This document shows positions 8,674 through 26,978 of a stretch of DNA of 64,000 nt, one piece after another. The translations under genes and the position numbers were made by a program. This DNA comes from Acidobacteriota bacterium (GTDB lineage: Bacteria; Acidobacteriota; UBA6911; JACQSX01), in assembly GCA_036507075.1 (NCBI GenBank), contig DASXQR010000003.1, positions 1 through 64,000 on the forward strand. Reading direction: 5' to 3'. The notes beneath the pieces are model-generated. The model was not told the DNA's origin. It made no database searches and saw only the letters and a list, made by a program, of their open reading frames with translations. The stretch's first letter is position 1; every line of letters starts with the position of its first letter.

Positions 8674-9717
8674 TCAACCACCAAGGCACCAAGCCATGTT
8701 GGTGGGCTTGGTGCCTTGGTGGTTAATCAAATTTCTGCCGCACCAGGCCTCTTGAACCACCGGTCCCCACCGATTCAAATCGAACTGCGTAACCAGGGAT
8801 AAACCTCCTTCTACGCAGCTCTCTGCTGTGTGCTGATCATCGAGCAGGCTGCGAATCGCCGTACACCACTGCTCATCCGTCGCTGCCGGAAGCGCGCCGC
8901 CGCTCTCAATGATCTGCCGCTGCGTCCCCACGGCAGAGGCGACGGACGGAACCCGGCAGGCAAGATACTGCAGCAGACGCAGCCCGCACTTGCCTCGAGT
9001 CCACCGATCATCCGGCAGCGGCGCCAGGCCGACACTCACCTGGCTCAGGTCTTGAACCTCCGTTTCAGAGTTCCAGGGTTTCCATTCGGTTCTAATTTCA
9101 GGCAAATCAGGCGGGCAATCACAGATCACTCGCAGTCTCAAATCAGGATAAGTCTTCGCCAGCCGATGTAAAACGTTTCGCAGGCGGTAGAGGTAGGGAA
9201 GTGTCGAATGGCAGCCAATCCAGCCAAGAAGACGAAGACGAACGCTGCCGGACGCGAATTGCACCGGATACTTTTTCAGATCAAGCGTGGTTGGCACGAT
9301 CACCACGTGATCGCGTGCGGTGTGTCGCGAAGCCAGATCTGCCAGATAAGCATTTCCGGCAGTCACGGTATGACAGCACCTCACGAGCTTTTTGAAACGC
9401 AGCCATCGATCAAGCAACAGCCGCGGTGTCCGGCGCGCCGAATCGGAGAAGATCACCGCATCGTCGAAGTCAAACACCATCCGGCCGGCGCGACTGGCCA
9501 GTTCACGAATAATGGCGGCAGATGGCAGCCGGCGCTGCAACACGACCACGTCGTTTGCAGTGATGGAGCGCGCGACAAGTTTTTGTGCGTGCCTCTCCCG
9601 CGGCCAGACAACGGTCTTCAACTGGCAGCCTTGCGCGAAAAAAAACGGCTGGTATTGCGTAATCCTGTAGCGCGTAGGCGCCTCCTCCATGTTTTGCGTT
9701 AGAGCCACGATTCTCAT
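8674..9717 (-). CDS. Glycosyltransferase, GT4-like
   Basis: VVLQRR, VFDFDDAV, GWIG, GKCGLRLLQY motifs; ATGA overlap with the waaA stop. Confidence 0.82.
   Translation of the reverse strand: MRIVALTQNMEEAPTRYRITQYQPFFFAQGCQLKTVVWPRERHAQKLVARSITANDVVVLQRRLPSAAIIRELASRAGRMVFDFDDAVIFSDSARRTPRLLLDRWLRFKKLVRCCHTVTAGNAYLADLASRHTARDHVVIVPTTLDLKKYPVQFASGSVRLRLLGWIGCHSTLPYLYRLRNVLHRLAKTYPDLRLRVICDCPPDLPEIRTEWKPWNSETEVQDLSQVSVGLAPLPDDRWTRGKCGLRLLQYLACRVPSVASAVGTQRQIIESGGALPAATDEQWCTAIRSLLDDQHTAESCVEGGLSLVTQFDLNRWGPVVQEAWCGRNLINHQGTKPTNMAWCLGG
8676..8724. repeat. Perfect 20-bp hairpin of the 9-mer repeat family; possible bidirectional terminator
   Basis: AACCACCAAGGCACCAAGCC (8676-8695) / GGCTTGGTGCCTTGGTGGTT (8705-8724) at a convergent gene junction. 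Confidence 0.8.
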
Positions 9718-11015
9718 CGCAGCTCCTGCGCCTGCCCGCATTGGACGTCAAGGATCCGAGCCAGCGCCTGAGCGCACAAACCGCTGCCTCCCCGCATTGT
9801 CTCCAATAGCAGCCGCGCATTCCGGGCCAGCTCGCGGCGAGCGAAGTCATCCTGAAAGAGGCGTACCAGCGCAGGGGTCAGGTTTTCCATTCGATTGAGC
9901 TGTAACAACCCCTGGCCGGCGCGGAATTGCTGCACCAGGTGTTCGAAGTTCGCCGTATGAGGACCCATCACGATGGCGCACTCGTGGGCTGCCGCCTCCA
10001 GGAAATTGTGGCCGCCGTGATGCGCAAAAGTGCCGCCGACGATGACAACGTCTGAGTGCGGATAGAACGCCGACAGCCGGCCGACTTCATCCAGGATCAT
10101 CACTTCCCAGTTCTGCCTGTAGGAAAGTCGCGAGCAGCAGACCCCATCAAACCCGTATCGGCGCGCCAGATTCTCGAGCACGGGGGCGCGGTTAACGTGC
10201 CGGGGAGCAAGAATCAGTTTCACATTCCCAAGAATGGCTTTAAGGTCGGCAAAAGTGCCCAGTATCAGTTTTTCTTCCGGCGCGTGAGTGCTGGCCGCTG
10301 CAAGCACGAATGCCGCACCATTGAACTGTTGTCTCCACGCACTCGGCGCCGCGCCGCGTAACCGCGGGTAATCGAGTTTCAAGTTGCCGCAGATTTCAAT
10401 CGATCCTGCGGGGGCGCCGATCTGAATAAAGCGTGTTTTTTCGGTCTCATCCTGCACGCCGATCCATGCAGCGCAGCTCAGGACTCTCCTGAAGAAAAAC
10501 TTCAGCAGCTTGTAGAACTTCATATCCTCCGCATAGATTCGTCCGTTGACGATGCAAACCGGAATTTTCAACTCGCTGCTTTCCAGGAAAAGATTCGGCC
10601 AAAGCTCGGTTTCTACCGTAATCACAAGGTCTGGTTGGCAATGCTGCAGCCAGCGGCGCATCGCAGCGCGACTGTCCCACGGAAGATATCCGATTACCTG
10701 AATCTCCGGATGTCGCCGCTGCAGTTGTTGGGCCACCTGCGCGCCTTCGCGTGTACCGGTTGTGACGACCAGCTCAACAGAAGGCCATCGTTTCGTGATT
10801 TCCGCCAACAATGGTTCGACCGAAAGAATTTCCCCCACGGAAACGCCGTGAACCACAAAGCGAAGCTGTGTGCGCCTGGGCATGGGATCCCATCGACCGA
10901 GTCGCTGGCGCAGCGCCTTGAGGTCCAATCGCCCGCGCAAAATTTGAATCACGTGCCAGGGCGCCAGCAGGCACCAGACCGCAATCAAAATGAGAACGCT
11001 GTAAAGAGCTGCCAT
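9714..11015 (-). CDS. waaA: Kdo transferase
   Basis: HGVSVGE, ETELWPN, VNGRI, GNLK.D, AASTH, LAPRH, GGHNFLEAA. Confidence 0.92.
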   Translation of the reverse strand: MAALYSVLILIAVWCLLAPWHVIQILRGRLDLKALRQRLGRWDPMPRRTQLRFVVHGVSVGEILSVEPLLAEITKRWPSVELVVTTGTREGAQVAQQLQRRHPEIQVIGYLPWDSRAAMRRWLQHCQPDLVITVETELWPNLFLESSELKIPVCIVNGRIYAEDMKFYKLLKFFFRRVLSCAAWIGVQDETEKTRFIQIGAPAGSIEICGNLKLDYPRLRGAAPSAWRQQFNGAAFVLAAASTHAPEEKLILGTFADLKAILGNVKLILAPRHVNRAPVLENLARRYGFDGVCCSRLSYRQNWEVMILDEVGRLSAFYPHSDVVIVGGTFAHHGGHNFLEAAAHECAIVMGPHTANFEHLVQQFRAGQGLLQLNRMENLTPALVRLFQDDFARRELARNARLLLETMRGGSGLCAQALARILDVQCGQAQELR

Positions 11016-11016
11016 A

Positions 11017-11814
11017 TCAAAGCATCAAGCTCATGCCGCCGTCGGCCACGATGGTCTGTCCATTGATCCACCCGGACAGCGGGCTGCAAAGAAACAGCAC
11101 AATCGAGGCGATATCTTCCGGCTTTCCGGCGCGTCCTGCCGTCGATTCCGTGCGCGCCTGCAGTTCGGGATAGCCGGGATGCCGCCTCACGGAAGGCGTA
11201 TCCACCAGGCCGGCAGACACGGCATTGACGTTGATGCGAAGGGGAGCCAATTCAGCAGCCAGATAGCGGGTCAGAGATTCCATGGCGGCCTTGGAAACTC
11301 CTATCGCTCCGTAGGAAGGAACGTACCGGCTGCTGCCCAGACTGGAGATGCTGACGATCTTTCCGCCTTCCTTCTGCATCAGCTTTGCGGCTTCCTGAGC
11401 GCACAGAAGGAGCGCGCGTGCATTGATGTTGAACGAAAGGTCCCACTGATTCGCCCTCAACTCCATTATCGGTTTAAACACGCCCATTGCCGCGCTGTGC
11501 ACCAGAACACCAAGAGGCCCGGATTCGCCGATGCGCTGAAACATTTCGCGGATTTCTTCCGGATGAACCAGATTGGCTTTGAGCAGCGTCGCCGATCCGC
11601 CGGCCGCTTCAATTTCATGCAATGTTGCCTGAGCGCTCCGGTCGTCATCCCTGTAGTTGACAAAAACATGAGCGCCGTGCGCGGCAAGAGATTTGGCGAT
11701 GGCTGCGCCGATTCCTCGAGAACCCCCCGTAACAAGAGCGCGCCTGCCGTGGAATGAAAAGCTTGCGGAATCCAATTTACCAGAACCAGAGCAGGCCAGG
11801 TTCGGAAGCGGCAT
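11017..11814 (-). CDS. fabL: SDR, enoyl-ACP reductase FabL-like
   Basis: TGGSRGIG; Yx6K active site (YGAIGVSK); segment CAQEAAKLM..GGKIVSISSLGS..VSKAA.E.LTRYLA.EL closely matches my recollection of Bacillus FabL. Confidence 0.75.
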   Translation of the reverse strand: MPLPNLACSGSGKLDSASFSFHGRRALVTGGSRGIGAAIAKSLAAHGAHVFVNYRDDDRSAQATLHEIEAAGGSATLLKANLVHPEEIREMFQRIGESGPLGVLVHSAAMGVFKPIMELRANQWDLSFNINARALLLCAQEAAKLMQKEGGKIVSISSLGSSRYVPSYGAIGVSKAAMESLTRYLAAELAPLRINVNAVSAGLVDTPSVRRHPGYPELQARTESTAGRAGKPEDIASIVLFLCSPLSGWINGQTIVADGGMSLML

Positions 11815-11831: not shown

Positions 11832-12914
11832 CTAAAAGTCATCCTGTGTTCTCTGTGTCCCTGTGGTGAATCTTTTTACAGGGTCCAATCCCGGCGTCAT
11901 TCTTTGACAAACTCCAGCATTTTGTTTGGGATGAGTCTGGGGCTGCACGAAGCATGCGTTCAGGTCGCGGCGTGTATAGGTTTCTTCGCTGCCATCGGGG
12001 CGGTTTTTCCAGCGCCAGTGGATCCATCGCCACTGGAGCGGAGCGGCGCGCACCCAACCTTCGTAAACAGTCATGATTTGTTGCGTGATCTTCAGGATCG
12101 ATTCCGGTCCGGTAGGAAAGCAGCGCGGGTCGATCACGGCCAGTTTGAACAGAAATTTCACATCATCGCAGCCACGCACTGCCGCGCCCACTACAATCGG
12201 CGCGCCGGTACAAAGGGAAAGCAAGGCAGCCGTCTTCCTGGTCGAAGCCGGTCGACCGAAAAAATTGACGTATGAACCTCGCCACCCGCCATTCTCGTCC
12301 ATCAACAGAGCCACACTGTCGCCCGCCCCCAGCCTGCGCAGGCATTCAAATACGGCGCCTCTCTTGTCGATCCATCGGGAATGATGATCCATTCGCAGAA
12401 TTTGCACCACGGAATTCAAAAAAGGATTGTCCACGCGTCGCGCTATTACAGCACTGTTTGCTCCCACGCGGCGTGAAGCCATCATGATGGTCGCCTCCCA
12501 TGATCCCAGATGACCGGTGACGAAAATCTTTGGGCGCGGGTCGGCACGCACCCGGTGCTCCAACTCGGGGTCCTCAGGCCGATAGAGCCGCTCCCAGGCG
12601 GAGCCTCCTTTTAGAAATCGGCGGGAGAACTGGATTCCTTCGGCGATGCTTTGCCCAAGGTTCCCGAATACCTGGCGCGCGTTTGTCTTGGCCTTCCTGT
12701 AGTCCATCGACTCTCCGTAGGCGCGGCGCAAGTTGATCATTGCAACTCTTGTAGCCCGCGGCCAGACCAGGAAAGCGCAGTATCCATAGAATCGTCCCAT
12801 ATGAGCTGCTGCGTCCCATGGAAGAAACCAGAGAGGAACTCCGAGCAAGAGAGCCAGAAAGCACAGCAGCAGATCGGAGGCAAGAAGGAAGGGTTTAAGA
12901 ATGCGGGTCAACAC
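11832..12914 (-). CDS. Lipid A secondary acyltransferase, LpxL/HtrB family
   Basis: Hx4E motif (TGHLGSWE), NLRRAY, VNFFG.PA, P.QW.WIH.RWK. Confidence 0.88.
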   Translation of the reverse strand: MLTRILKPFLLASDLLLCFLALLLGVPLWFLPWDAAAHMGRFYGYCAFLVWPRATRVAMINLRRAYGESMDYRKAKTNARQVFGNLGQSIAEGIQFSRRFLKGGSAWERLYRPEDPELEHRVRADPRPKIFVTGHLGSWEATIMMASRRVGANSAVIARRVDNPFLNSVVQILRMDHHSRWIDKRGAVFECLRRLGAGDSVALLMDENGGWRGSYVNFFGRPASTRKTAALLSLCTGAPIVVGAAVRGCDDVKFLFKLAVIDPRCFPTGPESILKITQQIMTVYEGWVRAAPLQWRWIHWRWKNRPDGSEETYTRRDLNACFVQPQTHPKQNAGVCQRMTPGLDPVKRFTTGTQRTQDDF

Positions 12915-13412
12915 GGGTTAGCGGGTTGCGGGTTTGCGGGTTAGCGGGTTACGGGTTAGCGGGTTGTGTTTGAAAAATTGAAAATCGAACGCCGAGATAA
13001 AAATCAAAGGAGGCTGTCTCAAAACTCGTGTAGAGACGGCAGCGGCTCAGCCGCCTTCCCTCTGGCGGCGAAGCTCTGCTTTGCCGTTCAATCCATATTT
13101 CTCGAACTGCGAGGCTGTGCCTCGCAAGCGCATGAGGCACAGCCTCACGCGAAAAAACAAAGTGGAAGGCATCGTCCGGCGAAGCAGAGCTTCGCCGGGC
13201 GAAGCAGAGCTTCGCCGCCAGAGGGAAGGCGGCAGAGCCGCTGCTATCTCTGCACGAGTTTTGAGACAACTTCTTCCAATGGGCTTCACGGCTGGCTTGC
13301 GCAGTAATGGAGTTCTGACCTCGATAACCCGCAACTCGATAACCCGCAACTCGATAACTCGCAACTCGATAACTCGCAACTCGCAACTCGTCAACCCGCA
13401 ACTCGTAACCCG
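12915..13412. repeat. Inverted 7/8-mer arrays (GGGTTGC / AACCCGC-AACTCG) enclosing a palindromic MITE
   Basis: Arms at 12915-12966 and ~13320-13412. Confidence 0.85.
13010..13273. mobile_element. MITE with ~75-bp imperfect terminal inverted repeats
   Basis: GAGGCTGTCTCAAAACTCGTGTAGAGA... / ...TCTCTGCACGAGTTTTGAGACAACTTC; ends resemble IS1182/IS5-type TIRs (from recollection). Confidence 0.7.
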
Positions 13413-13413
13413 A

Positions 13414-15117
13414 CTATCTTCCGCTGAGCGAACTGACTGCTGGCCGCGCCGTGTAGAGACGCACTGTTTCCCAGCGGCCTTTCGAGTAGTTGTATCCGCG
13501 GATCGTTTCCAGAACTGCTGCCGAACCTTGCCGCTGGGTCAGGCTGTACCGGAAGGAAGCGTCCCATTCGTCCAGCACCACGCCAATGCGGCCGGGTTCT
13601 TCGCAAAGGAACTGGGCAGCCTGCTGCGGCCAGAGCAGTTTTGTGGCCGATCCGCCCAGGAAAATAAGACTCGGTTCCCAATACCCGGCGACTCCGATAT
13701 TGGCGCCGGATGAATCGTTGCTCACCGAGTTCTTCTGAACAGCCTGAAGGATTGAACGGCTCAGCCAGATGGAATCAAAACGGGGAAGAAGCGAACCAAA
13801 GACGGGGACAAAAAGAAATAAAGCGCCAAGTACGCAGACTGTGGCCGCTTGTCTGACCCTTTGCTGCTTTAAGGCTGCGGCGCAGCCGGAGATTATCAGC
13901 AGAACGGTTGCAGCCAAAGCGGCTGTTAAGACGGGAAAATCCAATTTGAAATACCGTTGGAGCAGAAATAGTCCGGCAAGCATGGCTATGCCCGCCGCAG
14001 TCCAGAGAATCAAAGCTGCTCGAAGTCGTCCATGTTGATCGATGTTGGAAGCAGAAAAAAGCGACGCCAACAGCAACCCCAACGCCGGGTAAACCGGCAG
14101 AATGTAATGCGGAAGCTTCGTGGGAACACATTCGAGAAGGAGCCAGCAGGGGATGATCCAGGCCAGACAAAAACGTTCCAGGGGCTCATGCCGCAGTCTC
14201 CACGCATGCGAGACGGCGGGCAAAAGAAACAGCGAGCCGGGCCAGAACGTGAACAGCGCAAGCAGAAGATAATATCCCGGGGGAAAACCGTGCGACTCTC
14301 GACCTGCCGTCAGCTTGGGCCAGAGGTCAGACGCGAAAGCTCTAAGAAAGAAATTCTCGCCGGTACTGCCCTGGACTGCAAAGATCCAGGGAAACACAAG
14401 GCAGGCCGTCAGCGGCAATCCCATTGCCGGATTCAAACGTTTCAGCCATCGCCATTCACGGTCCGCGACTGCAAGTGAAACTATGGTGACCAGGCTGCAG
14501 ACTGGAACAACGGGTCCCTTGAGCATAATGCCGGCAGCCTGTGCTCCCCAGAATACCAACGACGGAACAAGCCCCGTCACGCGGCCCTTCCGAAACTGGG
14601 TGTATAGGACCGCCAGACTTGCCTGGGCTGCAACCACAGCCGAAAGCAGGGCGGCATCGGCGGTTGCCAGATGCGCTTCAAAAACCAGGAGCGCCGAGCC
14701 CGCCAGCAGGGCAGTTCCCAGGAATGCGGGCCGCAAGGCATAGAATCGTGTCGCCATGAAGAAAGTGAGCATTACTGCCAGTAAAGCGCCGGCAAACGAC
14801 GGGAGGCGGTATGGCCAGATGCTGTTCCTGGAAGATCGGCCTGAAGCCAGTACGGCGGCCGATTGCAGCCAGTGAATTCCGGCAGGCTTCTTGTACCTAT
14901 GCTCCTGCTGGAAGCGGATTTGCACGAAATCTCCTGTTTCCAGCATCTGGCGCGTGGCCTGCGCGAATCGCGCCTCATCGCGGTCCACAGGAGGGATGGA
15001 CGAGAAACCCGGAAGATAAAGCAGCGCGCACAAAACAGCCAGAGTCAGGAAGCAAACTAAACGGTGAAAATGTTTCTCGCGCTCAGCTGCGACAAGTTGT
15101 TCCTGGTGTGCGATCAT
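13414..15117 (-). CDS. ArnT-like GT83 polyprenyl-phosphate-sugar glycosyltransferase
   Basis: DRDEARFAQATRQMLETGD, YKKP, YRLPS, KGP, TKLPHYILPVYP; many TM helices. Confidence 0.88.
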   Translation of the reverse strand: MIAHQEQLVAAEREKHFHRLVCFLTLAVLCALLYLPGFSSIPPVDRDEARFAQATRQMLETGDFVQIRFQQEHRYKKPAGIHWLQSAAVLASGRSSRNSIWPYRLPSFAGALLAVMLTFFMATRFYALRPAFLGTALLAGSALLVFEAHLATADAALLSAVVAAQASLAVLYTQFRKGRVTGLVPSLVFWGAQAAGIMLKGPVVPVCSLVTIVSLAVADREWRWLKRLNPAMGLPLTACLVFPWIFAVQGSTGENFFLRAFASDLWPKLTAGRESHGFPPGYYLLLALFTFWPGSLFLLPAVSHAWRLRHEPLERFCLAWIIPCWLLLECVPTKLPHYILPVYPALGLLLASLFSASNIDQHGRLRAALILWTAAGIAMLAGLFLLQRYFKLDFPVLTAALAATVLLIISGCAAALKQQRVRQAATVCVLGALFLFVPVFGSLLPRFDSIWLSRSILQAVQKNSVSNDSSGANIGVAGYWEPSLIFLGGSATKLLWPQQAAQFLCEEPGRIGVVLDEWDASFRYSLTQRQGSAAVLETIRGYNYSKGRWETVRLYTARPAVSSLSGR

Positions 15118-15152
15118 CGGAGAAAAAAGTCAGATTCCCTGTGTCCCCTGTG

Positions 15153-15385
15153 TAACAAGTTGGCAACCTCTTTTTTTTGGCAAAGTTTTTGAAAGCCGTC
15201 CACGTCCACGAGCACGTGCACGTCAACGTCCACGATTACGTTTACGGCTTCGGTCACTTCGTCACAGACTGCGCAGAATTGAGGGGTTGTCTGTATGTTG
15301 TCGTGATCGTGGACCTGAGACGTGATCGTTGACGTGCACGTGCTCGTGGACGTGGACGGCTTTCTGGTTGCGGCCTACGCCCGGG
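15153..15385 (+). mobile_element. Non-autonomous element with asymmetric ends and internal hexamer (GTCCAC/GTGGAC) inverted arrays, copy 1
   Basis: Left end TAACAAGTTGGCAAC, right end GGTTGCGGCCTACGCCCGGG; CTGTG direct repeats at 15148-15152 and 15386-15390; homologues at 16272 and 34159. Confidence 0.7.
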
Positions 15386-15439
15386 CTGTGCCTCTTAGTG
15401 AAAGAAGCATCACCACAGAGGCGCAGGGGACACAGGGAA

Positions 15440-16249
15440 TTATTCGAATCCTGATTGTTCATCTGTATCGGGTGACATCCGGCAAAAGCCGCGTTTTGAT
15501 TCATGAATGAACCGAACCAGATGCCGCACCGCATCCGAGTCAATCTCAGCCATCGTCGCCAGCTTCGTCTCCAGACTTTGACCGGGGCAAAACAGAATAC
15601 GAGAGGCCTGCTTCAGATTCCGAATTTCATCAGGGGCAAAGCCTGCGCGCCTTAATCCGACGAGGTTGAGGGATCGAACTTTCGCCGGTATTCCGTCGAC
15701 AAGTACGAACGGCAACACATCTTGTGTCACTTTGGCATGGCCGCCGACCATCGAATGCTTGCCGATGCGGCTGAATTGATGAATCATCACTCCGCCGGAA
15801 AGAAACGCGTGGTCTTCGATCGTGATGTGCCCGGCCAGTCCAACGTTATTTGCGAGAATAACATGGTTCCCCAGAAGACAATCGTGGGCGACGTGAGCGT
15901 TTACCATTAAGTAGTTGTAATTGCCGATCCGCGTCTCCCCTCCGGGAGTCGTTGCGCGGTGCACCGTGACGCCTTCGCGAAAAATGTTGGCGCTGCCGAT
16001 AGTGAGGTACGAGATCGCTCCGGAGAACTTCAAATCTTGCGGCACGCCGCCGAGGACTGCGCCCTCGAAGATCTGATTGTCCTCTCCCATCGACGTGAAA
16101 CGCTTAATCACCGCATGCGCGCCGATGCGGCAACGCGCGCCGATTACCACGCCTGCCTCGACTACCGCGTAAGGCCCGATTTCCGTTGAGGTTCCAAGAC
16201 GGGCGCCGGAATCAACAACGGCGGTGGTGTGAATCAGCGCTTCGGGCAT
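15440..16249 (-). CDS. lpxA: Acyl-ACP--UDP-N-acetylglucosamine acyltransferase, accessory paralogue
   Basis: Hexapeptide repeats; PQDLKF, REGVTVHRAT, HVAHDC, LAGH, HQF, LNLVGLRR; ATG at 16249 chosen. Confidence 0.93.
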   Translation of the reverse strand: MPEALIHTTAVVDSGARLGTSTEIGPYAVVEAGVVIGARCRIGAHAVIKRFTSMGEDNQIFEGAVLGGVPQDLKFSGAISYLTIGSANIFREGVTVHRATTPGGETRIGNYNYLMVNAHVAHDCLLGNHVILANNVGLAGHITIEDHAFLSGGVMIHQFSRIGKHSMVGGHAKVTQDVLPFVLVDGIPAKVRSLNLVGLRRAGFAPDEIRNLKQASRILFCPGQSLETKLATMAEIDSDAVRHLVRFIHESKRGFCRMSPDTDEQSGFE

Positions 16250-19215: not shown

Positions 19216-20412
19216 TCAATTCACCGAGACCGCAACCGCCGCCGCCTGCCCCAAATATCCAAGAGAATTACATACGGCGCGCGCCGGTTTGCCGATTGCG
19301 TGTAAATGTTTTAGCAGCAGCGCGAGGTCCACTGCGCCGGAAGCCGCCAGAGTATGGCCCACCGCCGATTTGTACTCAACCAGAGGCAGAGTGCCGGCCC
19401 GGCTGTGAAAGGCCTTCTCCAATGCCGCCCTTTCTGCGTTCCGATGACGCTCGGAAAAAACCGAGGCGCAGCAGATCGCATCCAAATTTGCGGCATGCCA
19501 GCCGGCCTGTTGCAGCACATCCTCCAGCGCCGCTTCCAATGCGCTTCCAGGCTCTGGAGAATTCACGGGAAAACTTGCGCACGAATAGCCGTTCAGCTCC
19601 GCATAAATCCGGCCGCCGCGCTCTAAGGCGCGATCCCGCTCTTCCAGCAAGAGTACGGCGGCACCCTCGCCGATGGTGAATGGTGGAAGGTCGGCGCTCC
19701 CATCAAACAAGCCGGCCTGCTGGCAGCTTGCAAACGCCAGGGCGTACACACTGCTGTCTGCGCCTCCGGCCAGCATCAGATCGGCTTCGCCGGCCTCAAT
19801 TAACGCCGCCGCTTCTCCCACGGCCTGAGCCGCAGCAATCCAGTCAGTCATGATCGTGCTGTTGGGCCCGTGAGCTCCAATCTGAATGGCGATATGGGTG
19901 CTGACCATGTTTGGGAGATTTATCAGCAGCCAGAGCGGGTTGATGCCGGAAAGAACTTTCGAGGCGAAGAACGAAACGTCAAATGCGGAGCGCAGTTCGG
20001 GATCTTCGCCGATGGCGCGCGCCATGTCCTTCACATCCAGATCCGAAGCACCGGTGCCCATCAATACTCCCAGAGATTCAGAATGTGTAGAGCTTTCCGC
20101 GCGGAAGGTTCGATCCAGTGGTTGATTGTTGATGCCCAGGCCTGCATCGTCGAGGGCCATAGTCGCAGCGGCGACGGCCAACCGGGTCTTCCTGTCGGCA
20201 ATCTTAATAAGCTTGGTGAAGCGAAAGTAATTTCGCGGCTCAAAGTTTTTCACTTCGGCCGCCGACCGCTGTCTGAAACCGGAAGCGTCAAACAGCTTCG
20301 TTCTGGAAATTCCGCTCCTACCCTGCCGAATTGCTTCCCAGCAGCTGTTTAAGTCATTGCCAAGCGCGGTAAGCAATCCAATACCCGTGACTGCCACGCG
20401 GCGCGAACTCAT
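19216..20412 (-). CDS. Ketosynthase homologue lacking the catalytic Cys and first His (chain-length-factor-like)
   Basis: RRVAVTGIG, GEGAAVLLLEE; TAC replaced by TDW, NAHGT replaced by CCASV; KSAVGH retained. Confidence 0.85.
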   Translation of the reverse strand: MSSRRVAVTGIGLLTALGNDLNSCWEAIRQGRSGISRTKLFDASGFRQRSAAEVKNFEPRNYFRFTKLIKIADRKTRLAVAAATMALDDAGLGINNQPLDRTFRAESSTHSESLGVLMGTGASDLDVKDMARAIGEDPELRSAFDVSFFASKVLSGINPLWLLINLPNMVSTHIAIQIGAHGPNSTIMTDWIAAAQAVGEAAALIEAGEADLMLAGGADSSVYALAFASCQQAGLFDGSADLPPFTIGEGAAVLLLEERDRALERGGRIYAELNGYSCASFPVNSPEPGSALEAALEDVLQQAGWHAANLDAICCASVFSERHRNAERAALEKAFHSRAGTLPLVEYKSAVGHTLAASGAVDLALLLKHLHAIGKPARAVCNSLGYLGQAAAVAVSVN

Positions 20413-20413: not shown

Positions 20414-21478
20414 TCATTCTTTGCCGGCCTCATCCCTTCGCTGCAGCCGCGCGATGATCTCTTCCAGCCGGGCACAGCGGTTCTGCAGGTCGCGAATTTC
20501 TTTCCGTTGCTCGGGGAGCCTCGCAAACAGCACCAGGGCAGGGCGGGCCTTGTCTGCCGCAATGGCGGGGGTTCCCAGCCATTCGCCCGCTTCCAGGCTG
20601 TGGATTACTCCTGACTGCGCGCCTATCACTACTCCGTCTGCGAGTCTGACGTGATCACTGATCCCGGCCTGGCCGGCCAGGATGCACGAGTTTCCGATCT
20701 GGACGCTCCCGGAAATCCCAACCTGAGAGATGATGACGCAGTCCTGGCCAATCTCGCTGTTGTGTCCGATCTGCACCAGGTTGTCGATTTTGGTGCCGGC
20801 GGCGATACTGGTGACGCCAAGAGTAGCGCGGTCAATGGCGCAGTTGGCGCCAATCTCCACATCGTCTCCGATCTCGACCCCTCCCACCTGAGGAATCTTT
20901 TTGTACTTTCCATCGGAGCGGCGGGCGTAGCCGAAGCCGTCGCTGCCCACCACCGTTCCGCTGTGAATGCGCACATTACGGCCGATGCGGGTTCCCGAGT
21001 AAAGCGTGACGTTGGGGAGAATTACCGTGTGATCGCCGATGCTGACTCCTTCACCCACGAAGACATTGGGAAAGATTTCCACGTCGGCCCCGATGAGCGC
21101 GTCCTTTTCGATGTAGGCTCCCGCGGCGACTGCTACACCGGGCCCGAGCCTGGCTTGGGGCGAGATAACGGCGCGTGGATCGATGCCCACTTCGCGTCTG
21201 TGCGGTGGATAAAACAATTCGAGCAATTGAATGAGCGCCAGCCTGGGATCACTAACGTGTATGAGATTCCTGCTATTGTTTCCGGTTCCCATCGGGACGA
21301 TGAACGCAGACGCGTTACTTTTGGCGAGCGCTTCTGCGCCCCGGGAATCCATCACCACGCTGATTTCCCCTTCGCGCGCGTCTTCCAGCGTCCTGACGCT
21401 GTGGATTTCCACTCCGGGATTTCCGAGTAGTTCCCCCTGCAGCCGGGTAGCGATGGTTTCAAGAGTGTAGCTGGACAT
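20414..21478 (-). CDS. lpxD: UDP-3-O-acylglucosamine N-acyltransferase, accessory paralogue
   Basis: GSDGFGY, KIPQVG, EIGAN..IDR, KIDNLVQIGHN. Confidence 0.94.
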   Translation of the reverse strand: MSSYTLETIATRLQGELLGNPGVEIHSVRTLEDAREGEISVVMDSRGAEALAKSNASAFIVPMGTGNNSRNLIHVSDPRLALIQLLELFYPPHRREVGIDPRAVISPQARLGPGVAVAAGAYIEKDALIGADVEIFPNVFVGEGVSIGDHTVILPNVTLYSGTRIGRNVRIHSGTVVGSDGFGYARRSDGKYKKIPQVGGVEIGDDVEIGANCAIDRATLGVTSIAAGTKIDNLVQIGHNSEIGQDCVIISQVGISGSVQIGNSCILAGQAGISDHVRLADGVVIGAQSGVIHSLEAGEWLGTPAIAADKARPALVLFARLPEQRKEIRDLQNRCARLEEIIARLQRRDEAGKE

Positions 21479-21479: not shown

Positions 21480-22745
21480 TCAACGCCGCCCGTACACTTC
21501 AGTTGCGCTCTTGCTGTCCATATTTGATTCCTGCTGATGCGCCGCCGCCGGCCTTTGAGAAGTCTGTTTCAATACCAGCGACGCGGCCGCGCCAAGAGGA
21601 TCCTTTGCCGCCAGCAGGTCGGCTATCGAAGCGAGGCGCGTCGTAGTGCGGGCGAGATGGGTCCGATCCGACAACATGGACCAGGCAAGCTGTGCCGATT
21701 CGCGAGCGGTGGCGCGGGTCTGTCGCAGCTCCGGGACACATGTTTCGCGCAGAATAAGGTTTGGTAATCCGACTGTCTTGGACTGAAGAAGACCACACCA
21801 CAAAGCGATATTGGCGACCATCAATGTAACGGTGGAGACACGGTACAGTACGATCATTGGAACGCCCAGCAGAGCTGCTTCCAGCGACGCGGTGCCGGAG
21901 GCCAGCAGCGCCAGGTCACAAGCTCTCAACGCATCATGACTGTTCAGCGTGAGGATAACATTCTCCGACAGAGAGTGCCTTTGGATTTCTCTTTCAATAA
22001 AGCTTTGGAAGCAGGGCTCAGCCACCGGCAGCACGAACCTGAGGGAAGGATCTCTCGCCAATATCAGCCGGGCCGAATCGAGTAATGTTCCAGTCAGCCG
22101 CATCACTTCCTTGTTCCGGCTCCCGGGAAGAAGCGCTATTACGGTGGTTGTGGCATTGAGAGCGTGCAGGCGACGCGCCGCCGCTTTCTCCTGCGGGGTT
22201 GCGGGAGCGAGGACGTCGCACAGATAGTGCCCCACAAAGTGCGTCGACCCTCCCGCCGCCCGGTACACTTCCTGTTCCTCGGGAAATGATGTCAGAATCA
22301 GGTCGAAACTGCCGCAGATCAGGCGAGCCAGCGAACGCCACATCCAGATCTGTGGAGGAAAGAACGCCACAGTTGACACTTTTTGAAGCCTGAGCCACCG
22401 CGCCAGAAAGAAATTGAAGACGTCATTCCCGATCAACACGGCGACGTCGGGTCTCCTTTTTCGCACCTCACGACGGAGTCGCAGGAACCCCTGCAGCAGT
22501 CGGGGGAAAGTGACAAGCGCTTCGCTGATTCCCACAGTGCCGAGCCCGTTGGTGTCCAGATGCACGTGGACGCCCGCTTCGCGCATCCGGTGTCCTCCTA
22601 GCCCATGGAAGACGGCGGGATGACTGCACCGGATGGCGGACACAAGCCGTGCCCCTGCGATATCGCCCGAAACTTCTCCGGCGCTGATCAGTATTCTGAC
22701 CGGTCTCTCTGAAGAGCTGTCAGTCTGCGGGTCTTCAGTCGGCAT
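21480..22745 (-). CDS. lpxB: Lipid-A-disaccharide synthase
   Basis: SAGEVSGD, PPQIWMWR, FVGH, LLPGSR..E, ASGTASLEAAL..PM. Confidence 0.9.
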   Translation of the reverse strand: MPTEDPQTDSSSERPVRILISAGEVSGDIAGARLVSAIRCSHPAVFHGLGGHRMREAGVHVHLDTNGLGTVGISEALVTFPRLLQGFLRLRREVRKRRPDVAVLIGNDVFNFFLARWLRLQKVSTVAFFPPQIWMWRSLARLICGSFDLILTSFPEEQEVYRAAGGSTHFVGHYLCDVLAPATPQEKAAARRLHALNATTTVIALLPGSRNKEVMRLTGTLLDSARLILARDPSLRFVLPVAEPCFQSFIEREIQRHSLSENVILTLNSHDALRACDLALLASGTASLEAALLGVPMIVLYRVSTVTLMVANIALWCGLLQSKTVGLPNLILRETCVPELRQTRATARESAQLAWSMLSDRTHLARTTTRLASIADLLAAKDPLGAAASLVLKQTSQRPAAAHQQESNMDSKSATEVYGRR

Positions 22746-24609
22746 GAAAGTTGTCCAGCCTGCGTTTCATTTCCACAACACGGTCGGTCGATACGGAACT
22801 CGCTTCGGTTGGGCGGTCGCCGCTCCCGGAAGACGAGACGTCGACGATCTCACCGTCGGCCATAAGCACCACCAGATCGGCTTCAAACAACGAACTCTGC
22901 TGGTGCGAAGTAATAAAAATCGTCCGTTCCCCGCGCAACCGATTCAAAGCCTGTCGGATTTTGATCTGAGAATCAGAATCGACCTGGCTCGTCGCTTCGT
23001 CAAGGATAAGTATTGACGGATTCCTGAGGATTGCCCGCGCAACCGCGATGCGCTGCTTTTGGCCCGCTGAAAGACCCGCGCCGAATTCTCCCAGTTCGGT
23101 TTCGTAACCCTGCGGGAGCCCGCGAATGAAGTCGTCGGCATAGGCAGCGCGTGCCGCCTCGACGATCTTGGCGCGCGAAATATCGCGAAGCCCATAAGCG
23201 ATGTTGCCGGCAATGGTGGTCTGGAAGAGGGCGTTTTCCTGCGGAACGAGCGCAATTTGCCGGCGCAGGCTGCGCAAATCGACGCTTGCGATGTTGATGC
23301 CATCGATCAACACGCGTCCGGTATCCGGGTTCAGCAGTCGTGGAAGCATGCTCAGCAGCGTTGTTTTTCCCGCGCCATTACTTCCCACCAGGGCGACCAT
23401 CATTCCACGGAATACCTGAAGGTTGACGTCGCGTAGAGCCTGCCGGCTGCGGCCGGAGTAGCAGAAGGTGAGTGATTGGATCTGAATCTCGCGCCGGTGG
23501 CGGGACAATGGCGGTCTTTTCGGCTGCGATTGAATATCGTCTTCGTGTTCCGGCGGGAGACAACTGACCTCGATCACGCGGGCTGCAGCCGCGTCCGATT
23601 CTGCCAGCTCCTGCGAGAGTCGTGTGAGCGGCTTCAAGCTTTGCGCCGCGGCCATCAGCGCCGCCACAACCGTGACGAAACGCGCCGGTTCCACGCCTCT
23701 GCGAAGAATAAACCAGCCGGCAATAACTGTCAGCGCCGCGATGCAGCATAAAGCGATGGCTTCAACGGCAAACGATCCCAGAGCCTTGGCGTTGCCGATG
23801 CTTCGCTCTTCCCGGAACACGTCATTGTTGATCTTCGCAAAGCGGCGCTGTTCTTCCTGCTCGGCGTTATGCAGCTTTACCACGTGGATTCCAAGCAGCG
23901 AATGTTGAAGAGCTGAGACCAGCCGGGACCAGTGCCGGCGGGCGCTTTGCGAAGAGCGCCGGATCGAGATATTGGCCCGGTTCATCGAGGCGAAGATCAG
24001 AGGTGTGACCAGCAGCGCAACGCCGGCGATCCTCCAGTCCACCGCCAGAGCCACGCCGGCCGCAGCCACTCCTTTTAAAAGCTCCAATACCGGAGCTCCC
24101 GCGACCGCTTTGAAGCCGGTAAAGAGGACGCTGGTGTCGGAAACGAGGCGGCTGAGATTGTCCGCAGCGCCCAGACCTTTGACCGTTGCCAGCGGAGCAA
24201 GCATCAGTCGAGACGCGATCCGTTCGCGCCAAATCTTCACGCCGAGCGACACGACGTAAACGGCGCGCCGCTCGTGCAGATACCTGCAGCAACTTCCCAG
24301 CGTACCGGCGATTGCGATGACTGCCATCAGATTCACAAACCTTCGAAATGGATCGCTCTCATTGGGCAGCAGGCGCGCCGTAAAAGGCTGCAGAAACAAT
24401 GCGACTTTCTCAGCTCCGGGGGCCCTTGAAGGCAGGCGCGAAGCTGCTCCCCCGAGCAGAAGCTGCAGCGCCGGGTATGCCAGGCCCAGGCAGATTCCGA
24501 AGAGCGCGGCGGCCGCGAGCGCGGCCAGTGACGCCACCACCAGTTCGCGCCTGAAGCGAAGCATTACGGCGGCGGCTCGCCAAAAATTGGGATAAAAACG
24601 GGATCTCAT
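22735..24609 (-). CDS. MsbA-like ABC exporter (TMD plus NBD)
   Basis: Walker A GSNGAGKT, signature LSAGQKQR, ILILDEATS; ATGA coupling at 24609. Confidence 0.88.
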   Translation of the reverse strand: MRSRFYPNFWRAAAVMLRFRRELVVASLAALAAAALFGICLGLAYPALQLLLGGAASRLPSRAPGAEKVALFLQPFTARLLPNESDPFRRFVNLMAVIAIAGTLGSCCRYLHERRAVYVVSLGVKIWRERIASRLMLAPLATVKGLGAADNLSRLVSDTSVLFTGFKAVAGAPVLELLKGVAAAGVALAVDWRIAGVALLVTPLIFASMNRANISIRRSSQSARRHWSRLVSALQHSLLGIHVVKLHNAEQEEQRRFAKINNDVFREERSIGNAKALGSFAVEAIALCCIAALTVIAGWFILRRGVEPARFVTVVAALMAAAQSLKPLTRLSQELAESDAAAARVIEVSCLPPEHEDDIQSQPKRPPLSRHRREIQIQSLTFCYSGRSRQALRDVNLQVFRGMMVALVGSNGAGKTTLLSMLPRLLNPDTGRVLIDGINIASVDLRSLRRQIALVPQENALFQTTIAGNIAYGLRDISRAKIVEAARAAYADDFIRGLPQGYETELGEFGAGLSAGQKQRIAVARAILRNPSILILDEATSQVDSDSQIKIRQALNRLRGERTIFITSHQQSSLFEADLVVLMADGEIVDVSSSGSGDRPTEASSVSTDRVVEMKRRLDNFHAD

Positions 24610-25091
24610 CGGGATGGCGTCGGTTTCGACTTGTCGCGCAGCGCTTTCCATCCGTTAAAAAGAGACAGCACTACACGCTGCCAATGCCCCAGGGTAGCGA
24701 GCAGCAAACGCGCGGCCTCCCTCCGATCGCGGAAAACATTTGCGACGATGGCGCGATTTTTCTTGAAGTTGTTCCGCAGTTGAATACATTGATCCAGCAG
24801 AAAGCGCCGCGGGGTCCAGACTTCCACCAGGATGGCAGGAGCTCCAAAACTTCGGTAAGCGTTGAAGCGCTTGTGACCGTCGGCGATAATCCACCGTCCT
24901 CCCAGGGGAATGACAGAGACAGGCGGGAAAAGGTCTCCTCGAAGCATGCTCCGGCGGTACTGATCGATCCGTCCAGCAGCATGGGTTACTTCGAGCAGAT
25001 CCTGCACTTGATCCAGGGAAACTATCCGCGTCGGATACTCCGCAAGCGAAGGATCAAAGACGGGCAGATGGGTTTGGTGACCGGAGCTCAT
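24606..25091 (-). CDS. Small ParB/Sulfiredoxin-like domain protein
   Basis: FPPVSV..IIADGHKRFNAY motif; no HTH region; ATGA coupling on both sides. Confidence 0.72.
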   Translation of the reverse strand: MSSGHQTHLPVFDPSLAEYPTRIVSLDQVQDLLEVTHAAGRIDQYRRSMLRGDLFPPVSVIPLGGRWIIADGHKRFNAYRSFGAPAILVEVWTPRRFLLDQCIQLRNNFKKNRAIVANVFRDRREAARLLLATLGHWQRVVLSLFNGWKALRDKSKPTPSR

Positions 25092-25915
25092 GTGAGCCTC
25101 TGCCGATTTCGGTTCGGCAGCGATAGTGCCATACCCAGGAAAGTCAGCGCTGGAATGGCCAGGGTGGATACGATCCGAGCGGAGGCCGCATCCAACGCCG
25201 GCGTTCTGGCATAAATCGAGCTTAAGACGAGCGCTGCGGGCGCCAGCAGCAGCCATGCGGCGGCAAGACAGGATTCACCTGCGGGTGAAATGTTGCGCAA
25301 AACCGCATAGAGCCTTGCCGCCACCAGCGCGGAAACCGCCATCAACAGAATCACGACAAATCGCGATATGGAATCCGGCAGCAGGCAAGTGACTCCCGCG
25401 CCGACAAGGCAAGCCACGGTCGCAGATTGGAGACCGCGGTGAGATGTCGCGGCATCCCGCCCTTTGATCAGCAGCAGCGCCGCGGCGGAGCCGAGCAGGA
25501 CCGACTTTACCGCAAAGGAATAACGCGCGAACCAGGCCAGTCCGGCCTGTGATGCCTGCATGCGCCAAATAACGATCAGAAATGCGGCGTCGACTGCCGC
25601 TGGAAGCCAAAGCCATGGGCTTCGGAGCAGAGTCTTGTCCAGCAAACTTGAAACCGAGGCCAGCAGCCGGCCGAGGAAGAAAACCATGACGGTCTGAAAG
25701 AGAGGTATCACGAGAATGAAGACCCAGGTCGGAGCGTTGAATTCAATGAATCCTGAAACCAGATAACTGATGGAAAAAGAAGCCGCAATAAAAACCACGA
25801 GAAGGACTGCCAGAATTTTTGGAAAACCGGAGGGTGAGACGGAAAACACGGATTGATGTGTGCTTTTCAAGACTGCCAAGTTGAGGCGGCCCTCAGGCCG
25901 TCTCTCCACTTCCAA
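25088..25915 (-). CDS. Multi-pass membrane protein of unknown function
   Basis: About 7-8 hydrophobic segments; tightly coupled within the operon. Confidence 0.7.
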   Translation of the reverse strand: MEVERRPEGRLNLAVLKSTHQSVFSVSPSGFPKILAVLLVVFIAASFSISYLVSGFIEFNAPTWVFILVIPLFQTVMVFFLGRLLASVSSLLDKTLLRSPWLWLPAAVDAAFLIVIWRMQASQAGLAWFARYSFAVKSVLLGSAAALLLIKGRDAATSHRGLQSATVACLVGAGVTCLLPDSISRFVVILLMAVSALVAARLYAVLRNISPAGESCLAAAWLLLAPAALVLSSIYARTPALDAASARIVSTLAIPALTFLGMALSLPNRNRQRLT

Positions 25916-25922
25916 AAGATGC

Positions 25923-26978
25923 TCAGGCGCGTATCGCCTGCTGCGCCGCAGAGCGTATCGACATTACCGTCTGAGTGACCGCACACGGGTAGAGCAGTTT
26001 CATGCAGCCGCGACTGCAATGGGGCATTCGGCATTGTCCACAGCCGGGAGCGGTAATCACTTCGGCTCTGCCGGGAGGCCAGGGTCCTGTTCTGAGCGGA
26101 TCCGTGGGCCCATAGAGCGCCACCAGAGGTGTTCGGGTCGCCGCCGCGATGTGCAAAGGCCCGGTGTCACCGCTGACCACCAGCACCGACAAATCGAGGA
26201 GATGATACAACTCGCGCAGACTTAAAGAACCAAATGCGGAAAAAACACCGGCAGCATCCTCCAGCAACGAAGTTATTCGCGTTCCAAGAGCGGCTTCCGC
26301 TCGAGAGCCGGCAAGCACGACATCGAGCTTTTCCATTCGGAGCCACTGAGAAAGCTCTGCCCAATGCCGGGCCGGCCAGCGTTTTGAGGGCCAGGTGCCT
26401 CCCGGCAGCAATACGGCAAAATCCCGGCGGATTCCAAGTTCGCTCAAAAAGTTTTCCACTCGCGCTCGATCGGCGGCGACCGCCGGCAGGGTTAACGCGG
26501 GCCGTTCAGGGACGGGAACATTAAGCAACTCCAAAGCTTCCAGATTTGTCTCGACTGCGTGCCGCTGAATATGACGGCTGTGTGGAATCGTCCGAGCTAA
26601 CAGCGGAAAGCTTCCCCGGCCGATCTTGATCCGTGCGCGGGCCAGCTTTAACACAAGATAGCTGCGACCGCGACCTTGAAGATCTATCGCCACATCGAAG
26701 CGTTCGCGCCGCAGGTTTCCGAAGAGCCGCGCCGCTTTGGGCAACACTTGAAATGGATCGAAGGTTACGAAGCGGAATGGGTCGCGCGGAAAGAGAAGAA
26801 GTTGATCGATGTCGGGGTGGCCGCGGAGCAGTGGTGCGATGCCTTCATCAACAGCCCAGACGATGCGCGCTCCGGTATGCCGCTTCAGCTGGCGCACAGC
26901 GGGCGTTGCCATGACGACGTCACCCACTGAAGAGAGCTTGATTATGAGAACGGAAGGACGGGTCACGCCCGATATCAA
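25923..26978 (-). CDS. GT9 heptosyltransferase-like (WaaC/WaaF family)
   Basis: IIKLSSVGDVVMATP, AIDLQG, SKRWP, DTGPLHIAAA, LYGPT. Confidence 0.9.
   Translation of the reverse strand: MISGVTRPSVLIIKLSSVGDVVMATPAVRQLKRHTGARIVWAVDEGIAPLLRGHPDIDQLLLFPRDPFRFVTFDPFQVLPKAARLFGNLRRERFDVAIDLQGRGRSYLVLKLARARIKIGRGSFPLLARTIPHSRHIQRHAVETNLEALELLNVPVPERPALTLPAVAADRARVENFLSELGIRRDFAVLLPGGTWPSKRWPARHWAELSQWLRMEKLDVVLAGSRAEAALGTRITSLLEDAAGVFSAFGSLSLRELYHLLDLSVLVVSGDTGPLHIAAATRTPLVALYGPTDPLRTGPWPPGRAEVITAPGCGQCRMPHCSRGCMKLLYPCAVTQTVMSIRSAAQQAIRA

What the first reader, a model, noticed from the sequence alone, without database searches (positions are those of the whole stretch)
8674..26978. Second, largely self-contained lipid A/LOS-like glycolipid operon with its own fatty-acyl assembly module
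Seen: 16 co-oriented genes in the order GT9, membrane protein, ParB-like, msbA-like, lpxB, lpxD, dead KS, ACP, fabF, lpxJ-like, lpxA, arnT-like, lpxL-like, fabL, waaA, GT4. Most junctions are ATGA/TGATG overlaps or very short gaps, and the only three large gaps are filled by repeat elements. Separate canonical lpxD-fabZ-lpxA-lpxI genes sit about 26 kb away in the same window. Known: Raetz-pathway genes are usually single-copy, and a dedicated ACP/KS module feeding lipid A is characterised mainly in the rhizobial AcpXL/LpxXL system, which does not include lpxA/D/B, waaA or msbA. Inference: the operon builds, decorates and flips an alternative Kdo-lipid A-type glycolipid with a specialised acyl chain, borrowing LpxC, LpxI, FabZ and FabG in trans. 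I do not recognise this architecture as described.
Basis: partly seen in the sequence, partly recalled or inferred. Interest (0 to 1): 0.9.

Follow-up and report, generated by a model that had tools for sequence, protein, structure and literature searches.

The report
Second, ancient lipid A-type pathway
This soil bacterium carries, besides its ordinary lipid A genes, a separate 16-gene set conserved in distant relatives that likely builds a second outer-membrane glycolipid with a specially made, probably long, fatty chain, using a lipid A synthase whose usual catalytic residue has been replaced.

Summary
Observation confirmed: 16 co-oriented genes, labels correct, three repeat-filled gaps. 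The genome holds separate housekeeping lpxB, waaA-lpxK, lpxL and lpxD-fabZ-lpxA-lpxI. The operon's LpxB, LpxD and WaaA form their own clades (SH-aLRT 99/99/98); in-family duplication of LpxB is rejected (AU p=2e-10). The core lpxB2-lpxD2-dead KS-long ACP-fabF-DUF374-lpxL recurs in six other genomes, and a fuller version in a second phylum. It is rare: 5/401 and 11/251 genomes sampled. New here: LpxB2 lacks the predicted catalytic Asp98 (Gly/Ala in 120/120 homologues; Asp in 178/178 other LpxBs) and has Asp/Glu two residues on. A ParB/sulfiredoxin-fold family tracks it (5 of 5 carriers, 1 of 396 others). 'Self-contained' is overstated: LpxC, LpxK, LpxI and FabZ are single-copy elsewhere, lpxA2 is optional, and the KS/ACP cassette also occurs without lipid A genes. 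Best reading: an auxiliary lipid A-type branch with a rhizobial-XL-like acyl module. No product or expression data. New variant of a known kind; interest 0.72.

The parts
25923..26978 (-). GT9 heptosyltransferase-like glycosyltransferase
   Evidence: PF01075 E 8e-41; WaaC/F models below cut-off
25088..25915 (-). Membrane protein, about 6 hydrophobic segments; probably a divergent member of a family found in most related clusters
   Evidence: No Pfam hit; full-length but weak match, E 0.09, to a profile of 10 family members; hydropathy. Start uncertain.
24606..25091 (-). ParB/sulfiredoxin-fold protein, 161 aa, DGHKR motif, basic amphipathic C-terminal helices
   Evidence: Model pLDDT 87; Srx Z 9.4, SbnI Z 9.2, free serine kinase Z 9.0; 66 representatives at E<=1e-30, fused to MsbA-like, kinase, ArnT-like, LpxL, GT2, GT4
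22735..24609 (-). MsbA-like ABC exporter
   Evidence: Best NCBIfam MsbA 343 bits, cut-off 602; Walker A, signature and Walker B present
21480..22745 (-). LpxB2, lipid A disaccharide synthase paralogue; Gly106 at E. coli Asp98, Asp108 at Pro100
   Evidence: TIGR00215 over cut-off; alignment to 5W8N; motif counts; tree and AU test
20414..21478 (-). LpxD2 N-acyltransferase
   Evidence: TIGR01853 over cut-off; catalytic His motif kept; own clade
19216..20412 (-). Non-catalytic ketosynthase KS* (chain-length-factor-like)
   Evidence: Cys replaced in 9 of 9 cluster copies, Trp in 8
18775..19197 (-). Long ACP, 140 aa, with an insertion of about 50 residues and an SIDFLD motif
   Evidence: PF00550; 530 homologues; nearest Atlas cluster auto-named AcpXL family
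17513..18796 (-). Active FabF-like ketosynthase (Cys-His-His)
   Evidence: clade apart from the housekeeping FabF
16848..17513 (-). DUF374 (LpxJ-like) acyltransferase; the only DUF374 gene in the genome
   Evidence: PF04028; a His at the presumed catalytic region in only 3 of 11 cluster copies
16250..16847 (.). Gap filled with genome-wide palindromic repeats
15440..16249 (-). LpxA2 acyltransferase (accessory; not in most related clusters)
   Evidence: TIGR01852 over cut-off; active-site His/Lys/Gln kept against 1LXA
15118..15439 (.). Gap filled with repeats
13414..15117 (-). ArnT/GT83-like polyprenyl-phosphate-sugar transferase
   Evidence: PF13231; ArnT 86 bits, cut-off 567
12912..13413 (.). 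Gap filled with repeats
11832..12911 (-). LpxL2 late acyltransferase, HX4E motif
   Evidence: PF03279; motifs and 7-row clade
11017..11814 (-). FabL-like enoyl-ACP reductase (Tyr-x6-Lys)
   Evidence: PRK08063 284 bits, cut-off 328; motif
9714..11015 (-). WaaA2 Kdo transferase
   Evidence: PF04413; active-site residues kept against 2XCI; own clade
8674..9717 (-). GT4 glycosyltransferase
   Evidence: PF13692 E 1e-5; 34% homologue in the G771 cluster
53365..57622 (+). Housekeeping lpxD-fabZ-lpxA-lpxI plus a Gfo/Idh/MocA oxidoreductase; context, and likely supplier of FabZ and LpxI in trans

Best explanation
The operon encodes a second, anciently diverged set of lipid A enzymes plus a fatty-acyl elongation module, and likely works as an auxiliary branch that makes a second Kdo-lipid A-type glycolipid carrying specially made, probably long, acyl chains. 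Shown: gene content, separate clades, conserved order, intact active sites in LpxA2, LpxD2, WaaA2, LpxL2 and FabF, a dead KS, and the Asp98 replacement in LpxB2. Inferred steps: (1) FabF/KS* act as a heterodimer that elongates chains on the long ACP; FabL-like reduces the enoyl; FabG and FabZ are borrowed here, though relatives encode them in the cluster. (2) LpxD2, and LpxA2 where present, load 3-hydroxyacyl chains; LpxC and LpxI are borrowed. (3) LpxB2 joins these precursors using the shifted Asp108 as base. (4) WaaA2 adds Kdo, LpxL2 adds the fully reduced special chain, GT9/GT4 add a short core. (5) MsbA2 flips the product, ArnT-like caps a phosphate position with a sugar, and the common Lpt system exports it. 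The ParB/Srx protein is probably a membrane-surface nucleotide-dependent phosphotransferase in this branch.
For: Second copies of lpxB/waaA/lpxL/lpxA and a third lpxD in a 95.7%-complete genome. Two lpxB in 9 of 9 carriers tested; two waaA in 12 of 12 carriers against 1, 1, 0 in three non-carriers. Clades: LpxB2 99, LpxD2 99, WaaA2 98 SH-aLRT; AU p=1.75e-10 against in-family duplication. Order lpxB2-lpxD2-KS*-ACP-fabF-DUF374-lpxL in G093, G416, G433, G517, G521, G529. G771, in another phylum, has lpxB2-lpxD2-lpxA2 joined to long ACP, two active and two dead KS, FabG-like, FabL-like, two FabZ-like, lpxL and msbA. The S. meliloti VLCFA module has the same active+dead KS pair and a DFLDI ACP (PMC11901934). 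GC3 and tetranucleotides match the genome.
Against: No lipid, RNA or enzyme data. lpxK, lpxC, lpxI and fabZ are single-copy, so intermediates must be shared and could simply mix into one lipid A pool. The close-type long ACP is in 5 genomes without LpxB2, and three inspected had no lipid A genes near it. 4 of 11 LpxB2 genomes in that sample lack it, and several clusters have only one FabF. G001's cluster lpxD and G417's second waaA fall outside the clades. LpxL2 is no closer to LpxXL than the housekeeping LpxL is (67 vs 87 bits), and the KS link to XL is weak, 80/81. Chain length is not predictable: LpxA2/LpxD2 and the housekeeping copies share Gly at the presumed ruler positions (ruler positions recalled). 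Several carriers are close kin.
Confidence: 0.55

Rival explanations
1. Conditional isoenzymes: the operon remodels the single LPS. Its products swap acyl chains and caps on the shared lipid A pool under some condition, as Francisella LpxD1/LpxD2 do with temperature, without making a separate molecule.
For: LpxC, LpxK, LpxI and FabZ must be shared. lpxA2 is optional. Francisella precedent (PMC4402001 passage). Leptospira lpxB1/B2 and lpxD1/D2.
Against: Simple remodelling does not need a second LpxB, WaaA, MsbA and GT9, yet these co-occur and form old separate clades. LpxB2 has a rebuilt active site.
Confidence: 0.22
2. New backbone: LpxB2, with its base moved two residues, makes a linkage other than beta-1',6 or uses another acceptor. 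The ParB/Srx protein supplies a phosphorylation or pyrophosphatase step in place of LpxK or LpxH/I, giving a second class of outer-membrane glycolipid.
For: Asp98 absent in 120/120 homologues and 21/23 cluster loci, Asp/Glu at +2 in all; a sister clade has both, D-x-E. No second lpxK in 6 of 6 carriers. The ParB/Srx family resembles the SbnI/serine kinase fold and tracks LpxB2.
Against: Other LpxB residues (Glu15, Ser17, Pro-Gly-Ser-Arg201) are kept. A nearby Asp could do the same chemistry. A shared fold shows no function. The ParB-like gene was not found beside lpxB2 in G433, G517, G511, G583 or G771, and G414 has it without LpxB2.
Confidence: 0.15
3. Specialised-metabolite cluster: lipid A enzymes were recruited to make a secreted or pigment-anchoring glycolipid, such as a lipid A mimic or a polyene-bearing lipid, rather than a bulk membrane lipid.
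For: Patchy range. Related long ACPs sit in Streptomyces multi-KS clusters. One cluster has a type I PKS (G252).
Against: An enoyl reductase points to saturated chains. WaaA, GT9, ArnT-like and MsbA-like genes are LPS machinery. No thioesterase or aromatase was seen in the operon.
Confidence: 0.05
4. Artefact or decaying recent acquisition (misassembly, contaminant, pseudogenes).
For: Draft genome of 233 contigs; run contigs break at the repeat-filled gaps.
Against: Even depth and host-like composition; all 16 frames intact; same order in other genomes.
Confidence: 0.03

Closest known systems
Raetz Kdo-lipid A pathway (LpxA/C/D/H-I/B/K, WaaA, LpxL, MsbA)
   Same: Homologues of LpxA, LpxD, LpxB, WaaA, LpxL and MsbA, with catalytic residues kept in A, D, WaaA and L.
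   Different: It is a second set beside a complete housekeeping one; no lpxC, lpxH/I or lpxK in the operon; LpxB lacks Asp98; own ACP/KS module and ParB/Srx protein.
Rhizobial VLCFA module acpXL-fabZXL-fabF2XL-fabF1XL-adhA2XL-lpxXL (PMC11901934, passages)
   Same: Specialised DFLDI-type ACP, one active plus one Cys-less KS, a reductase and an LpxL-family transferase; FabZ-like gene in eight related clusters.
   Different: ACP is 140 vs 95 aa; reductase is an SDR (FabL-like), not a zinc dehydrogenase; dead KS has Trp, not Glu; orthology is weak; XL only edits the one lipid A and has no lpxA/B/D, waaA or msbA.
Legionella and Leptospira paralogous lipid A genes (Albers 2005 and 2007, titles only; PMC4758666 passage)
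   Same: Second lpxB (and lpxD) in one genome is on record.
   Different: Their sequences could not be obtained, so clade membership and Asp98 status are unknown. I saw no report of one operon joining them to waaA, msbA and an ACP/KS module.
Francisella LpxD1/LpxD2 (PMC4402001 passage)
   Same: Paralogous LpxD choosing different chain lengths.
   Different: A single-gene switch, not a parallel branch.
ParB/Srx-fold phosphotransferases (sulfiredoxin, SbnI, free serine kinase)
   Same: Fold over residues 15-104, Z 9.0-9.4, and a D-G-H-x-R type motif.
   Different: 14-20% identity; amphipathic tail; lipid A gene context; substrate unknown.

Membership tests
LpxB (GT19) | Family profile over the curated cut-off | tested here: met
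   TIGR00215 211 bits vs 190; PF02684 232 vs 22.6
LpxB (GT19) | Predicted catalytic base Asp98 (PMC5785501) | tested here: not met
   Gly106; Gly/Ala in 120/120 homologues; Asp in 178/178 other LpxBs from fetched loci
LpxB (GT19) | Glu15, Ser17, Pro-Gly-Ser-Arg201 and ribose-binding Glu281 | tested here: met
   Invariant or nearly so in alignment A1 and against 5W8N
LpxB (GT19) | Forms the beta-1',6 disaccharide 1-phosphate | not testable with these tools
   Needs an enzyme assay
Complete Raetz pathway in one locus | lpxA, lpxD, lpxB, waaA, late acyltransferase and msbA present | tested here: met
Complete Raetz pathway in one locus | lpxC, lpxH/I/G and lpxK present | tested here: not met
   None in the operon; single copies at C152, window 55809 and C15
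Rhizobial XL VLCFA module | Specialised ACP + two FabF (one dead) + dehydratase + reductase + LpxL-type transferase | tested here: met
   All but FabZ in this operon; FabZ-like in relatives
Rhizobial XL VLCFA module | Orthology to AcpXL, FabF1/2XL and LpxXL | tested here: inconclusive
   ACP 43% over 49 aa; active KS grouping 80/81; LpxL2 not closer than the housekeeping LpxL; the PRK06508, PRK06501, PRK06519 and PRK06553 models (recalled as the XL-type ones) all below cut-off
Rhizobial XL VLCFA module | Zinc-dependent AdhA2XL | tested here: not met
   FabL-like SDR instead
Rhizobial XL VLCFA module | C26-C34 (omega-1)-hydroxy chain on lipid A | not testable with these tools
   Needs lipid MS
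Legionella/Leptospira lpxB paralogue groups | Same clade and active-site motif as their second LpxB | not testable with these tools
   No sequence retrieved; primary paper not held
WaaA (GT30) | Glu31, Arg212, Glu276 of the Aquifex enzyme | tested here: met
   Alignment to 2XCI; residues named in PMC5785501 Table 3
LpxJ (DUF374) acyltransferase | Conserved catalytic His (motif recalled) | tested here: inconclusive
   His in 3 of 11 cluster copies; RG and DGPxGP-type motifs kept
ParB/Srx phosphotransferases | ParB/Srx core fold | tested here: met
   Z 9.4, rmsd 3.3, 85 aligned; Z 9.2, rmsd 2.0, 78 aligned
ParB/Srx phosphotransferases | Nucleotide-dependent phosphoryl transfer | not testable with these tools
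   Needs an assay

The most novel reading that the evidence does not exclude
Some Acidobacteriota and Deltaproteobacteria-type bacteria make two chemically different outer-membrane glycolipids. The second is built by an LpxB subfamily with a relocated catalytic base that forms a non-canonical backbone, bears very long chains from its own ACP, is phosphorylated by a new ParB/Srx-fold lipid kinase instead of LpxK, and has its own Kdo transferase and flippase.
Probability: 0.17. Interest if true: 0.92.

Novelty: new variant of a known kind. Interest (0 to 1): 0.72.

Why it matters
LpxB is among the most conserved lipid A enzymes, and Asp98 is its predicted catalytic base (PMC5785501). A natural subfamily of hundreds of sequences that replaces it, with a D-x-E sister clade as a possible intermediate, gives a direct test of the mechanism. 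A parallel LpxD/LpxB/WaaA/LpxL/MsbA branch would show how one cell keeps two lipid A-type species apart while sharing LpxC and LpxI. It ties an orphan long-ACP/KS-KS* module and an unannotated ParB/Srx family to envelope lipids in an abundant, poorly cultured soil phylum. The enzymes are also candidate tools for making defined lipid A analogues in vitro.

Tried and rejected
No RNA holder was listed. Complex prediction for FabF with KS* was not available, so the heterodimer is untested. The long-ACP model had not finished, and the Foldseek pdb search was never run. No LpxB2 match covering the clade was seen on plasmids (best 36%; 15 of 40 rows listed). An unguided iterative profile for the membrane protein drifted into low-complexity frames and was redone with trimmed seeds. 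G349 and G054 passed the loose threshold (335 and 323 bits) but score like non-clade LpxBs; they were not placed in a tree and are not counted as carriers. The careful LpxB tree did not finish; the quick tree is used. The AU test used 64 of 82 rows and LG+G4. The Fisher values overstate because kin are not independent and are not relied on. Recent horizontal arrival was rejected on composition. The Kdo-kinase-like gene of 8 related clusters is absent from this genome. Literature: nine searches listed no paper on this operon type, an Asp98-less LpxB, or a ParB/Srx protein in lipid A clusters; the library lacks most subscription papers, and no supplements were read. Four look-ups of earlier findings returned nothing.

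Full report
Observation. The 16 ORFs are present on the - strand at 8674-26978 in the order given. Family scans support 14 labels. The ParB-like label holds at fold level; the membrane protein has no family hit. Twelve of 15 junctions overlap or are at most 18 nt. The three long gaps are 91-98% covered by repeats that recur on 55-74 contigs. GC3 (0.60-0.70) matches housekeeping genes, and 12.6% of 222 genomic windows deviate as much in tetranucleotides, so the region is long resident. Depth is even outside the repeats in two DNA runs that may be the source samples.

These are second copies. The 6.1 Mb genome (95.7% complete) holds another lpxB (C213, 30% identical), waaA next to lpxK (C15, 26%), lpxL (C60, 27%), lpxA (window, 42%) and two more lpxD. 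lpxC, lpxK, lpxI, fabZ and DUF374 are single. Of 41 genomes including this one, 4 have two lpxB. Two lpxD are normal in this class (three relatives without LpxB2 have two), so the operon's is a third.

Trees. In an 82-row LpxB tree the C213 copy groups with its family (100) inside the class, while the operon copy sits in a separate 21-row clade (99) with a 5-row sister that includes a Bacteroidota MAG (joint support 100, quick tree). Forcing the operon copy into the family clade is rejected (p-AU 1.75e-10; 64 of 82 rows). Cluster LpxD (13 rows, 99) and WaaA (14 rows, 98) also form clades. Exceptions: G001's cluster lpxD and both G417 waaA lie outside. Every carrier tested has two lpxB (9 of 9) and two waaA (12 of 12, against 1, 1 and 0 in three non-carriers). 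lpxK is single in 6 of 6; lpxA is doubled in 1 of 5.

Range and synteny. LpxB2 was found in 5 of 401 phylum genomes (two borderline hits not counted), 11 of 251 in a second class and 2 of 301 in the phylum of a Deltaproteobacteria MAG. The order lpxB2-lpxD2-KS*-long ACP-fabF-DUF374-(membrane)-lpxL recurs in G093, G416 (a Holophagales MAG), G433, G517, G521 and G529; fabL follows in five, waaA2 lies near in all six, and a fabZ-like gene precedes lpxB2 in eight loci. Several are close kin; they span three families with this genome. G771 joins lpxL, lpxB2, lpxD2, lpxA2, long ACP, two active and two dead KS, FabG-like and FabL-like reductases, two FabZ-like genes and msbA. A second type lacks ACP and KS* and has one FabF (G001, G252, G336, G511, G571, G583), with a type I PKS in G252 and arnB/C-like genes in G001. 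The exact 16-gene order was seen only here.

LpxB2 active site. Against E. coli LpxB (5W8N), Gly106 aligns without gaps to Asp98 and Asp108 to Pro100. Asp98 is the predicted catalytic base (PMC5785501, passages). All 120 listed homologues have Gly or Ala there and Asp or Glu at +2; all 178 other LpxBs extracted from my loci (many Betaproteobacteria) have Asp98. Among 23 cluster loci, 21 lack it; the other two, and three more sister-clade rows, have both, D-x-E. Glu15, Ser17, Arg201 and Glu281 are kept. Inference: the base has moved, so substrates or regiochemistry may differ.

Other enzymes. LpxA2, LpxD2, WaaA2 and LpxL2 keep their catalytic motifs (E. coli LpxA/LpxD residue roles recalled). 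FabF keeps Cys-His-His. KS* has lost the Cys in 9 of 9 copies. The reductase has the Tyr-x6-Lys spacing of enoyl reductases (motif meaning recalled). DUF374 keeps a His in only 3 of 11 copies.

Acyl module. The S. meliloti XL cluster, fetched here, also pairs an active KS with a Cys-less one and has a DFLDI-type ACP (gene set as in PMC11901934, passages). So the module works like XL by composition. Orthology is weak: KS support 80/81, and LpxL2 is no closer to LpxXL than the housekeeping LpxL. The close-type long ACP is in 12 of 251 genomes, 7 of them LpxB2 carriers. In three non-carriers inspected, KS*-ACP-fabF stood without lipid A genes, and more distant long ACPs occur in Streptomyces multi-KS clusters. 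The cassette is therefore portable and its chain length unknown.

ParB/Srx protein. Its model (pLDDT 87) matches sulfiredoxin, SbnI and a free serine kinase at Z 9.0-9.4, close to the range the tool calls middling, and ends in basic amphipathic helices. It forms a discrete family (66 representatives at E<=1e-30). Of 20 longer members examined, 5 are fused to MsbA-like transporters, 3 to kinase-like domains, and one each to ArnT-like, LpxL, GT2 and GT4. In the 401-genome sample it occurs in all 5 carriers and 1 other genome, where it precedes an msbA-like gene among glycosyltransferases. It was not found beside lpxB2 in five clusters. A phosphotransferase role is a guess from fold and from the missing lpxK and lpxH/I.

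Mechanism and rivals. Best reading (0.55): an auxiliary branch making a second Kdo-lipid A-type glycolipid with special chains, borrowing LpxC, LpxI, probably LpxK, CMP-Kdo, FabG and FabZ. Rivals: conditional remodelling of one lipid A pool (0.22), a new backbone (0.15), a specialised metabolite (0.05), artefact (0.03). Nothing here shows expression or product.

Known systems. Paralogous lpx genes are on record for Leptospira (PMC4758666, one passage), Francisella (PMC4402001, passages), scattered lineages (PMC3087551, passages) and Legionella (Albers 2005 and 2007, titles in reference lists only). I could not test whether those second LpxBs belong to this clade; if Legionella's does, novelty falls. 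Nine literature searches listed nothing on this operon type or on an Asp98-less LpxB, within a library that lacks most subscription journals. No supplements were read; that of PMC3087551 lists duplications and may bear on this.

Verdict. Real, conserved, rare and apparently undescribed: a new variant of a known kind, interest 0.72. The most novel reading not excluded, a second glycolipid class with a non-canonical backbone and a ParB/Srx lipid kinase, has probability about 0.17 and would merit 0.92.

Noticed in passing
window 56633-57622 (+): A Gfo/Idh/MocA oxidoreductase directly follows lpxI in the housekeeping locus. It may be GnnA (recalled), which would imply a 2,3-diamino-glucose lipid A; seven DegT-family aminotransferases exist, GnnB not identified.
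   Followed up: partly
G000 C216:15452-16450 and window 53365-54411: Two housekeeping-type lpxD paralogues, a state shared by relatives lacking LpxB2.
   Followed up: partly
G000 C233:40149-41036: A closer member of the cluster membrane-protein family lies elsewhere in this genome, before a GT4-like gene.
   Followed up: partly
L285:129-1439 (G771): A further, very divergent LpxB-like protein (437 aa, PF02684 31 bits) sits directly upstream of lpxB2.
   Followed up: no
L007:2347-3021; L177:14002-14697; L178:10528-12273: An unannotated kinase-like family occurs in 8 clusters, next to or fused with WaaA2 or the ParB/Srx domain; a candidate Kdo kinase, absent from this genome.
   Followed up: partly
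L009, L090, L091, L093: A sister LpxB clade with a D-x-E motif next to msbA and lpxL-like genes, in a Bacteroidota MAG that also has a canonical lpxB.
   Followed up: partly
L282 and L283 (Streptomyces plasmids NZ_CP108708, NZ_CP106799): Long-insert ACP with two active/dead KS pairs, FabD, FabH-like and a monooxygenase: an uncharacterised type II cluster.
   Followed up: no
L294 (G598), L295 (G580), L296 (G608): Stand-alone KS*-ACP-fabF cassettes; in G598 near a sulfotransferase and a PlsC-type acyltransferase, in G580 near an aminoglycoside acetyltransferase-family gene.
   Followed up: partly
window 12912-13413, 15118-15439, 16250-16847 and many other contigs: Several abundant palindromic and short tandem repeat families, up to about 140 matches per position genome-wide.
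   Followed up: no
window 34810-36234 (+): An ACT-domain protein resembling the C-terminal half of GlnD (resemblance recalled), apparently without the N-terminal catalytic part.
   Followed up: no
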